Of a stretch of DNA of 64,000 nucleotides, positions 20,698 to 20,850 are shown piece by piece (positions within the stretch are counted from its first letter, which is position 1; each line of letters begins with the position of its first letter). The notes below the pieces were generated by a model. The model made no database searches, was not told the origin of the DNA, and saw only the letters and a program-made list of their open reading frames with translations. Origin of the DNA: Escherichia coli (GTDB lineage: Bacteria > Pseudomonadota > Gammaproteobacteria > Enterobacterales > Enterobacteriaceae); NCBI RefSeq assembly GCF_003334405.1, contig NZ_QOWM01000002.1; one strand, 5' to 3'. A program made the position numbers and the translations under genes.

Positions 20698-20722
20698 TCA
20701 TCGCTGAACAGCGAACACAATC

Positions 20723-20740
20723 TGTAAAATAATATATACA
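20723..20740 (+). promoter_or_regulatory. TyrR-box-like motif TGTAAA-N6-TATACA upstream of mtr
   Basis: tgtaaaataatatataca read directly; mtr is a known TyrR/TrpR target. Confidence 0.4.
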
Positions 20741-20774
20741 GCCCCGATTTTTACCATCGGGGCTTTTTTTCTGT
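20740..20774 (+). terminator. Rho-independent terminator after deaD
   Basis: caGCCCCGATttttaccATCGGGGCtttttttctg. Confidence 0.5.
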
Positions 20775-20777
20775 CTT

Positions 20778-20800
20778 TTGTACTCGTGTACTGGTACAGT
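20778..20800 (+). promoter_or_regulatory. TrpR-operator-like GTAC repeats in the mtr promoter region
   Basis: tgtactcgtgtactggtacagtg; resembles the trp operator half-site pattern. Confidence 0.35.
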
Positions 20801-20850
20801 GCAATGCATAACAACGCAGTCGCACTATTTTTCACTGGAGAGAAGCCCTC

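What the first reader, a model, noticed from the sequence alone, without database searches (positions are those of the whole stretch)
20698..20850. Compact mtr control region with TyrR-box-like and TrpR-operator-like motifs flanking the deaD terminator
Within 150 bp sit tgtaaaataatatataca (TGTAAA-N6-TATACA), the deaD terminator hairpin, then tgtactcgtgtactggtacagt with GTAC repeats. This is consistent with known dual TyrR/TrpR control of mtr, but the TyrR-like box being upstream of the terminator is odd.
Basis: partly seen in the sequence, partly recalled or inferred. Interest (0 to 1): 0.3.

Follow-up and report, generated by a model that had tools for sequence, protein, structure and literature searches.

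The report
Known E. coli mtr control region
This is the already well-studied control region of the E. coli tryptophan-uptake gene mtr, where the stop signal of the upstream gene deaD fills the fixed-length gap between an activator site and the promoter, so the finding is real but ordinary.

Summary
Window 20698-20850 is the 153-bp deaD-mtr intergenic region of E. coli, present in 5426 of 5426 complete genomes. It holds, in order:
- a TyrR box, TGTAAA-N6-TATACA (20723-20740)
- a GC-rich hairpin plus T7 tract (20740-20770)
- the GTAC-rich TrpR operator (20780-20797)

The TyrR and TrpR sites are each the best match to their consensus in the whole 64-kb window.

In 72 non-redundant Enterobacteriaceae intergenic regions:
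- The TyrR box is kept in 68.
- The operator is kept in all 72.
- The hairpin stem pairs in 99.4% of cells, with compensatory and G-U changes. That marks it as a plus-strand RNA structure, i.e. the deaD intrinsic terminator.
- Box-to-operator spacing is 57 bp (±1) in 67 of 68.

The "odd" placement has a simple explanation. TyrR is a class I activator whose strong box lies 42 bp (four helical turns) upstream of the weak -35. The terminator occupies that spacer, and its T-tract ends where the -35 begins.

Dual control of mtr, by TyrR activation and TrpR repression, has been published since 1991. This is already known and of low interest. The only additions are comparative details and a natural IS200 insertion at the terminator/promoter boundary.

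The parts
18808..20697 (+). deaD coding sequence (ATP-dependent RNA helicase); stop codon TAA at 20695-20697
   Evidence: RefSeq annotation of the identical K-12-derived sequence, transferred by offset. The ORF end is at 20697.
20702..20719 (.). Candidate weak (distal) TyrR box, CGCTGAACAGCGAACACA. The position is inferred, not confirmed.
   Evidence: It matches 5/12 consensus positions and keeps the G-N14-C pair. It lies 3 bp upstream of the strong box, so the centres are 21 bp (two helical turns) apart. Orthologues in Phytobacter, Kosakonia and UBA3516 score 7-9/12 at the same gap. PMC4374768 says a weak distal box exists but gives an 8-bp separation, which I could not reconcile.
20723..20740 (.). 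Strong TyrR box, TGTAAAATAATATATACA (11/12 to TGTAAA-N6-TTTACA), lying in the deaD 3' UTR
   Evidence: A box scoring >=9/12 is kept in 68 of 72 non-redundant orthologous intergenic regions. The literature describes a strong box proximal to the promoter, centred 42 bp upstream of the -35 (PMC4374768).
20740..20770 (+). deaD intrinsic terminator: stem 20740-20748 / 20756-20764, 7-nt loop 20749-20755, T7 tract 20764-20770
   Evidence: Terminator scan. RNA fold -20.8 kcal/mol, z = -4.2. Across 69 sequences, 99.4% of cells pair, 5 of 9 pairs show changes on both sides, and 43 cells are G-U, which is allowed only in plus-strand RNA.
20771..20776 (+). Inferred weak -35 hexamer CTGTCT (3/6) of the mtr promoter
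   Evidence: It belongs to the only -35/-10 pair found in a relaxed scan of the region that has a -10 with A2 and T6, apart from a weaker downstream pair. Its centre is 42 bp from the TyrR box centre, matching PMC4374768. It is poorly conserved, as expected for an activator-dependent promoter.
20780..20797 (.). TrpR operator core GTACTCGTGTACTGGTAC; the conserved block runs 20777-20800
   Evidence: It is almost invariant in all 72 orthologous regions. TrpR repression of mtr is reported in PMC5343134 and bioRxiv 10.64898/2025.12.20.695731.
20795..20800 (+). Inferred -10 hexamer TACAGT (TACAAT in many genera), overlapped by the operator. The inferred transcription start is near 20807.
   Evidence: T20800 lies outside the operator core yet is conserved in >=90% of sequences. 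The start site is an inference and was not mapped here.
20837..20841 (+). Shine-Dalgarno sequence GGAGA of mtr
   Evidence: The conserved CTGGAGA block lies 10 nt before the ATG.
20851..22095 (+). mtr coding sequence (tryptophan-specific permease, 414 aa)
   Evidence: ORF list, RefSeq annotation, and Pfam PF03222 on homologues.

Best explanation
The 153-bp interval is the compact, previously characterised regulatory region of the E. coli tryptophan permease gene mtr, overlapped with the 3' end of the deaD transcription unit.

**deaD termination.** deaD transcripts end at an intrinsic terminator: a 9-bp GC-rich stem, a 7-nt loop and a U7 tract (20740-20770).

**The mtr promoter.** It begins immediately after that tract and is weak: -35 CTGTCT at 20771-20776, an 18-bp spacer, and -10 TACAGT at 20795-20800.

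**Repression.** Tryptophan-bound TrpR binds the operator at 20780-20797. The operator covers the spacer and the first bases of the -10, so TrpR excludes RNA polymerase.

**Activation.** TyrR, with phenylalanine or tyrosine, binds the strong box at 20723-20740, possibly together with a weak box about 21 bp further upstream. It activates as a class I activator through the alpha subunit of RNA polymerase. The box centre lies 42 bp, or four helical turns, from the -35.

**Role of the terminator DNA.** It simply fills this fixed-length spacer, which is why the TyrR box sits upstream of the terminator, inside the deaD 3' UTR.

**Shown here:** the sequence elements, their statistical rarity, their conservation, RNA-level covariation of the hairpin, and the invariant spacing.

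**From the literature:** TyrR activation, TrpR repression, and the 42-bp geometry.

**Inferred:** the exact -35, -10 and start site, the weak-box position, and the passive-spacer role of the terminator DNA.
For: - **Identity of the locus.** The sequence is 100% identical to many E. coli chromosomes, is annotated deaD | mtr, and is present in 5426 of 5426 genomes.
- **Rarity of the motifs.** The best TyrR-consensus match and the best trp-operator-consensus match in 64 kb lie 40 bp apart, just upstream of mtr.
- **Conservation.** deaD-mtr synteny is kept in every fetched Enterobacteriaceae locus (80 fetched) that extends far enough upstream, and the intergenic length is 133-159 bp. Conservation is concentrated in four blocks: the TyrR box, the stem plus T-tract, the operator plus -10, and the Shine-Dalgarno sequence. 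Loop and flank sequences vary.
- **Spacing.** The distance from TyrR-box centre to operator centre is 57 bp in 57 sequences, 56 in 9 and 58 in 1. The single 77 is a tie-break artefact for L071, whose aligned box also sits at 57.
- **Hairpin.** 99.4% of cells pair, 5 of 9 pairs carry double changes (0 of 500 shuffles reach this), and slid controls pair in at most 58% of cells. The frequent G-U pairs are compatible only with plus-strand RNA.
- **Promoter.** CTGTCT-18-TACAGT is the top candidate. Its -35 centre lies exactly 42 bp from the box centre, as stated in PMC4374768.
- **Literature.** TyrR is a class I activator that needs a strong box upstream of the -35 (PMC7142922). TrpR represses mtr (PMC5343134). 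A CRISPRi study confirmed TyrR as activator and TrpR as the dominant repressor at mtr.
- **Separable modules.** Cedecea, Shimwellia and L085 keep the terminator and operator but lack the TyrR box. Cronobacter has the terminator and promoter about 175 bp apart. An IS200C in E. coli strain 1579 sits exactly at the T-tract/-35 junction.
Against: - No binding, 5'-end or 3'-end data could be examined here.
- The original 1991 papers are not in the held library, so site positions rest on secondary citations and on my inference.
- The default sigma-70 scan does not call the mtr promoter. That fits a weak, activator-dependent promoter but is not positive evidence.
- The weak TyrR box is only 5/12 in E. 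coli and poorly conserved. My 3-bp gap disagrees with the '8 bp' quoted in PMC4374768.
- The TrpR IUPAC pattern used was shaped on this very sequence. Only the consensus ranking is an independent test.
Confidence: 0.93

Rival explanations
1. The nesting is functional rather than just compact. One version: deaD transcription, which is strongly cold-induced, runs through the TyrR boxes and terminates inside the mtr upstream activating region, so it modulates TyrR occupancy or promoter access (transcriptional interference). A second version: terminator read-through supplies mtr mRNA that bypasses TyrR control. A third version: the A/T-rich loop and T-tract of the terminator DNA act as an UP-like docking site for the alpha C-terminal domain.
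For: - The terminator T-tract ends at 20770 and the inferred -35 starts at 20771, so there is no neutral DNA between the units.
- The abutment is kept even in genera that lack the TyrR box.
- Cronobacter, where the hairpin is about 175 bp away, still has a T-rich run just upstream of the operator.
- Loop length is held at 7±1 nt.
Against: - There are no expression data.
- Fixed spacing is fully explained by the helical-phase requirement of a class I activator.
- The IS200 insertion and the Cronobacter arrangement show the two modules can be separated in viable lineages.
- I found no report of deaD-mtr coupling.
Confidence: 0.12
2. The inverted repeat at 20740-20764 is not an RNA terminator. 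Instead it is a DNA-level element, such as a protein-binding palindrome or a cruciform, that takes part in mtr regulation.
For: It is a perfect 9-bp palindrome lying between two regulator sites. The scan also scores it on the minus strand.
Against: - 43 stem cells across taxa are G-U pairs. On the other strand, or in duplex DNA, these would be C-A mismatches.
- The loop sequence is free to vary while the stem covaries.
- A T7-T8 tract follows it in essentially all taxa.
- It lies 43 nt after a co-directional stop codon.
- Cronobacter keeps it next to deaD, not next to mtr.
Confidence: 0.03
3. The TGTAAA-N6-TATACA sequence is a chance A/T-rich palindrome in a 3' UTR, for example the A-tract partner of the terminator's U-tract, and has no TyrR function.
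For: - The region is A/T-rich.
- 18 of 100 shuffles of the window give at least one match with at most 1 mismatch somewhere.
- Four lineages do without the box.
Against: - It sits at a fixed 57-bp distance from the operator in 67 of 68 taxa.
- The consensus positions are conserved while the N6 varies.
- Published mutagenesis and activation data for mtr are cited in PMC4374768 and PMC7142922.
- tyrR knock-down lowers mtr expression.
Confidence: 0.02

Closest known systems
E. coli K-12 mtr regulatory region (Heatwole & Somerville 1991; Sarsero, Wookey & Pittard 1991; Sarsero & Pittard 1991; as cited in PMC4374768)
   Same: It is the same locus and the same sequence: 100% identical to the K-12 derivative ER1709. 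It has a strong TyrR box upstream of the -35, a TrpR operator over the core promoter, and the same 42-bp box-to--35 geometry.
   Different: Nothing differs in kind. Through the held literature I could not confirm whether the original papers explicitly noted that the spacer is the deaD terminator. The published weak-box coordinates could not be checked either.
TyrR-activated promoters tyrP and aroP P3 (class I activation by TyrR)
   Same: A strong TyrR box upstream of the -35 is required, with an accessory weak box on the same helical face (PMC7142922).
   Different: At mtr the spacer between the box and the -35 is occupied by another gene's terminator, and a second regulator, TrpR, dominates.
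TrpR operators of trpEDCBA, aroH, trpR and aroL
   Same: It is a GTAC/ACT-rich imperfect palindrome overlapping the core promoter and matches the trp operator consensus at 14/18.
   Different: It has three GTAC repeats spaced 8 and 6 bp apart, is less symmetric (12/18 self-complementary), and is combined with an upstream activator site.
Canonical intrinsic (Rho-independent) terminators of Enterobacteriaceae
   Same: It has a GC-rich 9-bp stem, a short loop and a U7 tract, with an A-rich tract upstream.
   Different: Its U-tract directly abuts the next gene's -35, and its A-rich upstream flank doubles as a transcription-factor site.

Membership tests
TyrR box (TyrR regulon operator) | An 18-bp palindrome matching TGTAAA-N6-TTTACA | tested here: met
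   The site at 20723-20740 matches 11/12. It is the only site in the 64 kb with at most 1 mismatch.
TyrR box (TyrR regulon operator) | Invariant G and C separated by 14 bp (positions 2 and 17). This rule is taken from my own knowledge of the TyrR literature. | tested here: met
   G20724 and C20739 are present. Both are kept in the boxes conserved across orthologues.
TyrR box (TyrR regulon operator) | For activation, a strong box located upstream of the -35 on the correct helical face | tested here: met
   The box centre is 42 bp (4.0 turns) from the centre of the inferred -35. Spacing to the operator is conserved at 57±1 bp. The -35 itself is inferred.
TyrR box (TyrR regulon operator) | Binding by TyrR protein and an effect on transcription | not testable with these tools
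   Reported in the literature as cited in PMC4374768, PMC7142922 and the CRISPRi preprint. The original papers are not held.
TrpR operator | Sequence resemblance to the symmetric trp operator (GTACTAGTTAACTAGTAC) | tested here: met
   It matches 14/18, the best in the window on either strand. It is near-invariant in 72 orthologous regions.
TrpR operator | Overlap with the core promoter so that the bound repressor occludes RNA polymerase | tested here: inconclusive
   The operator at 20780-20797 overlaps the inferred spacer and -10. The transcription start site was not mapped here.
TrpR operator | Tryptophan-dependent binding by TrpR and repression | not testable with these tools
   Stated in the literature: PMC5343134, PMC12566513 citing Jeeves et al. 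1999, and the preprint.
Intrinsic (Rho-independent) terminator | A GC-rich stem-loop immediately followed by a U-tract, on the strand of the upstream gene and downstream of its stop codon | tested here: met
   The stem has 9 bp with 6 G-C pairs, the loop is 7 nt, and a T7 tract follows. The structure starts 43 nt after the deaD stop codon.
Intrinsic (Rho-independent) terminator | The structure is maintained by selection at the RNA level | tested here: met
   99.4% of cells pair, 5 of 9 pairs show compensatory changes, and there are many G-U pairs. Slid controls pair in at most 58% of cells.
Intrinsic (Rho-independent) terminator | Transcript 3' ends map to the U-tract | not testable with these tools
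   No 3'-end data are available here, and the literature search found none for this site.

The most novel reading that the evidence does not exclude
The deaD terminator may be more than passive filler. Its DNA (A/T-rich loop and T-tract) could serve as the alpha-CTD docking surface for TyrR-dependent activation. Alternatively, deaD transcription and termination through the TyrR boxes could couple cold-shock helicase expression to tryptophan uptake, either by transcriptional interference or by read-through. That would make this a conserved case of a terminator embedded as a working part of the next promoter.
Probability: 0.1. Interest if true: 0.35.

Novelty: already known. Interest (0 to 1): 0.1.

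Why it matters
The finding matters little beyond confirming that sequence reading alone recovered a textbook regulatory region. The comparative results add small points:
- The terminator hairpin is under RNA-level selection while also being held to a fixed length by the promoter architecture.
- The TyrR input has been lost, or was never gained, in some genera, whereas the TrpR input is universal.
- Natural IS200 insertions split the two modules exactly at their junction. Such strains are ready-made tests of distance-dependent TyrR activation.

Tried and rejected
- **Original papers.** I tried to read the primary papers (PubMed 2061290; PMC208063, PMC212541, PMC207980, PMC179526, PMC178520). 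None is held, so positions come from secondary sources.
- **Rfam.** A permissive E-value scan of 18000-23000 gave only a chance-level hit (anti-hemB, 18 bits against a gathering score of 49.5, E = 0.98). No known RNA family lies here.
- **Default promoter scan.** It did not call the mtr promoter. It flagged only TGAACA-17-AATAAT at 20705-20733, inside the deaD 3' UTR, which I treat as chance.
- **Weak TyrR box.** I tried to pin it by scanning all gaps upstream of the strong box in 72 taxa. There is only a mild enrichment at gaps of 2-4 bp, it is not conserved family-wide, and the quoted 8-bp gap could not be reproduced.
- **A natural mtr copy away from deaD.** The 79%-identical Klebsiella protein P0088 lies downstream of a tryptophanase-type gene, so it is a tnaB-type paralogue and not informative.
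- **Literature on deaD terminator and mtr coupling.** The search returned only irrelevant papers.
- **TrpR IUPAC pattern.** The pattern was designed with this sequence in view, so its chance estimate is biased. I rely instead.

Full report
**What is in the sequence.** Window 20698-20850 is the whole interval between the stop codon of a 1.9-kb ORF (TAA, 20695-20697) and the ATG of a 414-codon ORF (20851) on the same strand.
- A 501-bp query across it is 100% identical to many E. coli chromosomes, including a K-12 derivative. It is found in 5426 of 5426 complete E. coli genomes. The flanking genes are annotated deaD (ATP-dependent RNA helicase) and mtr (tryptophan permease).

**Is it more than chance?**
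- The TyrR consensus TGTAAA-N6-TTTACA with at most 1 mismatch occurs once in the 64-kb window, at this site, against 0.19 expected.
- I ranked every 18-mer on both strands against the symmetric trp-operator consensus. The sequence at 20780-20797 is the best in the window, at 14/18.
- So the two best regulator-consensus matches in 64 kb lie 40 bp apart, directly upstream of the gene both regulators are known to control.
- The IUPAC pattern I used was shaped on this sequence and should not be counted as independent.
- The RNA fold of 20698-20775 is dominated by the 9-bp stem (-20.8 kcal/mol, z = -4.2, 0 of 200 shuffles as stable).
- Rfam has nothing here.

**Comparative evidence.** A scan of one genome per species with the Mtr protein returned 80 Enterobacteriaceae loci.
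- deaD lies immediately upstream wherever the fetched DNA reaches far enough. The intergenic length is held to 133-159 bp.
- An alignment of 72 non-redundant intergenic regions shows conservation concentrated in four blocks: (Y)GTAAAGTAA..ATACA, the hairpin stem plus T-tract, TGTACTCNTGTACTGGTACA(G/A)T, and CTGGAGA before the ATG. The hairpin loop, the 5' flank and most of the 5' UTR vary freely.
- A TyrR box scoring at least 9/12 is present in 68 of the 72. The exceptions are three Cedecea-type sequences and Shimwellia.
- The distance from box centre to operator centre is 57 bp in 57 sequences, 56 in 9 and 58 in 1. The single '77' is a tie-break artefact for L071, whose aligned box also sits at 57.

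**The hairpin is an RNA terminator.** I counted the 9-pair stem on 69 distinct sequences.
- 99.4% of cells pair.
- Five of nine pairs show changes on both sides, which 0 of 500 shuffles reach.
- Sliding the 3' arm by 1-3 columns drops pairing to 27-58%.
- Forty-three cells are G-U pairs, for example GAT...ATT in Klebsiella and Kluyvera. These are tolerated only in plus-strand RNA.
- Together with the T7-T8 tract and the position 43 nt after a co-directional stop codon, this identifies the deaD intrinsic terminator. It argues against a DNA-level palindrome.

**Why the TyrR box is upstream of the terminator.**
- The held literature states that mtr has a strong TyrR box proximal to the promoter and a weak distal box, both upstream of the -35. 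The strong box is centred 42 bp upstream of the -35 element (PMC4374768).
- TyrR activation needs a strong, appropriately located box upstream of the -35 and works as class I activation (PMC7142922, citing Sarsero & Pittard 1991 and Lawley et al. 1995).
- In a relaxed hexamer scan of 20755-20835, the best pair is CTGTCT (20771-20776), an 18-bp spacer and TACAGT (20795-20800). The centre of CTGTCT is exactly 42 bp from the box centre (20731.5).
- The -10 reads TACAAT in many genera. Its final T, which lies outside the operator core, is conserved in at least 90% of sequences. The -35 is poorly conserved, as expected for an activator-dependent promoter.
- The layout is therefore: TyrR box, then terminator stem-loop and T-tract (30 bp), then the -35 with no spare base, then the TrpR operator across the spacer and the start of the -10.
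- The 42 bp equals four helical turns, and the length of the hairpin, including its loop (7±1 nt), is held constant across the family.
- The simplest reading is that the terminator DNA occupies a spacer whose length is fixed by activator geometry. From memory, not verifiable here, Sarsero & Pittard 1991 showed that non-integral-turn insertions between the boxes and the -35 abolish activation, which would explain this constraint directly.

**Regulatory logic.**
- TrpR represses mtr (PMC5343134; PMC12566513 citing Jeeves et al. 1999 on the five TrpR operators).
- TyrR activates mtr with phenylalanine or tyrosine.
- A 2025 single-cell CRISPRi preprint found TyrR acting as activator and TrpR as repressor at mtr, with repression dominating.
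- The operator position over the spacer and -10 fits steric exclusion of RNA polymerase.

**The modules are separable.**
- Cedecea, Shimwellia and an unnamed relative (L085) keep the terminator abutting the operator but have no TyrR box. They carry a different small hairpin upstream.
- Cronobacter sakazakii has the terminator right after deaD and the operator plus TACAAT about 175 bp further on. No TyrR box is visible at the expected distance.
- Within E. coli, up to 18 of 5426 genomes lack a contiguous interval.
- In strain 1579 an IS200C element sits exactly between the T7 tract and CTGTCT. That is the terminator/promoter junction, and the insertion moves the TyrR box about 0.7 kb away.
- TrpR control is thus universal in this set. 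TyrR control is a feature of the Escherichia-Salmonella-Citrobacter-Klebsiella-Enterobacter-Kosakonia-Atlantibacter group.

**What remains unresolved.**
- The weak TyrR box could not be pinned. The best candidate is 20702-20719: 5/12, G-N14-C kept, 3-bp gap, 21 bp centre to centre. Better-scoring orthologues sit at the same gap in Phytobacter, Kosakonia and UBA3516. It is not conserved family-wide, and PMC4374768 quotes an 8-bp separation.
- The start site (about 20807) and the transcript 3' end are inferred, not mapped.
- I cannot exclude that deaD transcription or the terminator DNA contributes actively to mtr control. Nothing requires it.

**Verdict.** The 'odd' placement is explained by the known class I geometry. 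This is the already described mtr control region, so interest is low.

Noticed in passing
L086 1786-2505 (E. coli strain 1579, NZ_CP103718.1); equivalent to window 20770|20771: An IS200C element (tnpA annotated) is inserted exactly between the deaD terminator T7 tract and the inferred mtr -35 CTGTCT. This displaces the TyrR boxes about 0.7 kb from the promoter. Up to 18 of 5426 E. coli genomes lack a contiguous deaD-mtr interval.
   Followed up: partly
L084 2222-2500 (Cronobacter sakazakii): The deaD-mtr interval is 279 bp. The terminator lies right after deaD, and the TrpR operator plus TACAAT lie about 175 bp downstream, with unrelated sequence between them. No TyrR box appears at the usual distance. 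A T-rich run still precedes the operator.
   Followed up: partly
L055, L062, L068 (Cedecea-type), L080 (Shimwellia), L085 2345-2500: These lineages keep the terminator abutting the TrpR operator but lack the TyrR box. A different small hairpin (for example CTGCCG...CGGCAG) sits upstream of the terminator instead.
   Followed up: no
window 20705-20733 (+): A promoter-like TGAACA-17-AATAAT (9/12) lies inside the deaD 3' UTR and overlaps the TyrR boxes. Any transcript from it would run straight into the terminator. It is probably a chance match in A/T-rich DNA.
   Followed up: no
window 20701-20714 (+): A small 5-bp stem, CGCTG-AACA-CAGCG, lies just after the deaD stop codon and overlaps the candidate weak TyrR box. 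It is kept in close Escherichia relatives only.
   Followed up: no
L082/L083 2501-3757 (Klebsiella): A 418-aa protein 79% identical to Mtr lies downstream of a tryptophanase-family gene. It is a tnaB-type paralogue, not an mtr orthologue.
   Followed up: partly
window 18735-18815 (+): A tiny annotated gene, yrbN (26 aa), overlaps the start of deaD in the RefSeq annotation of the identical sequence.
   Followed up: no
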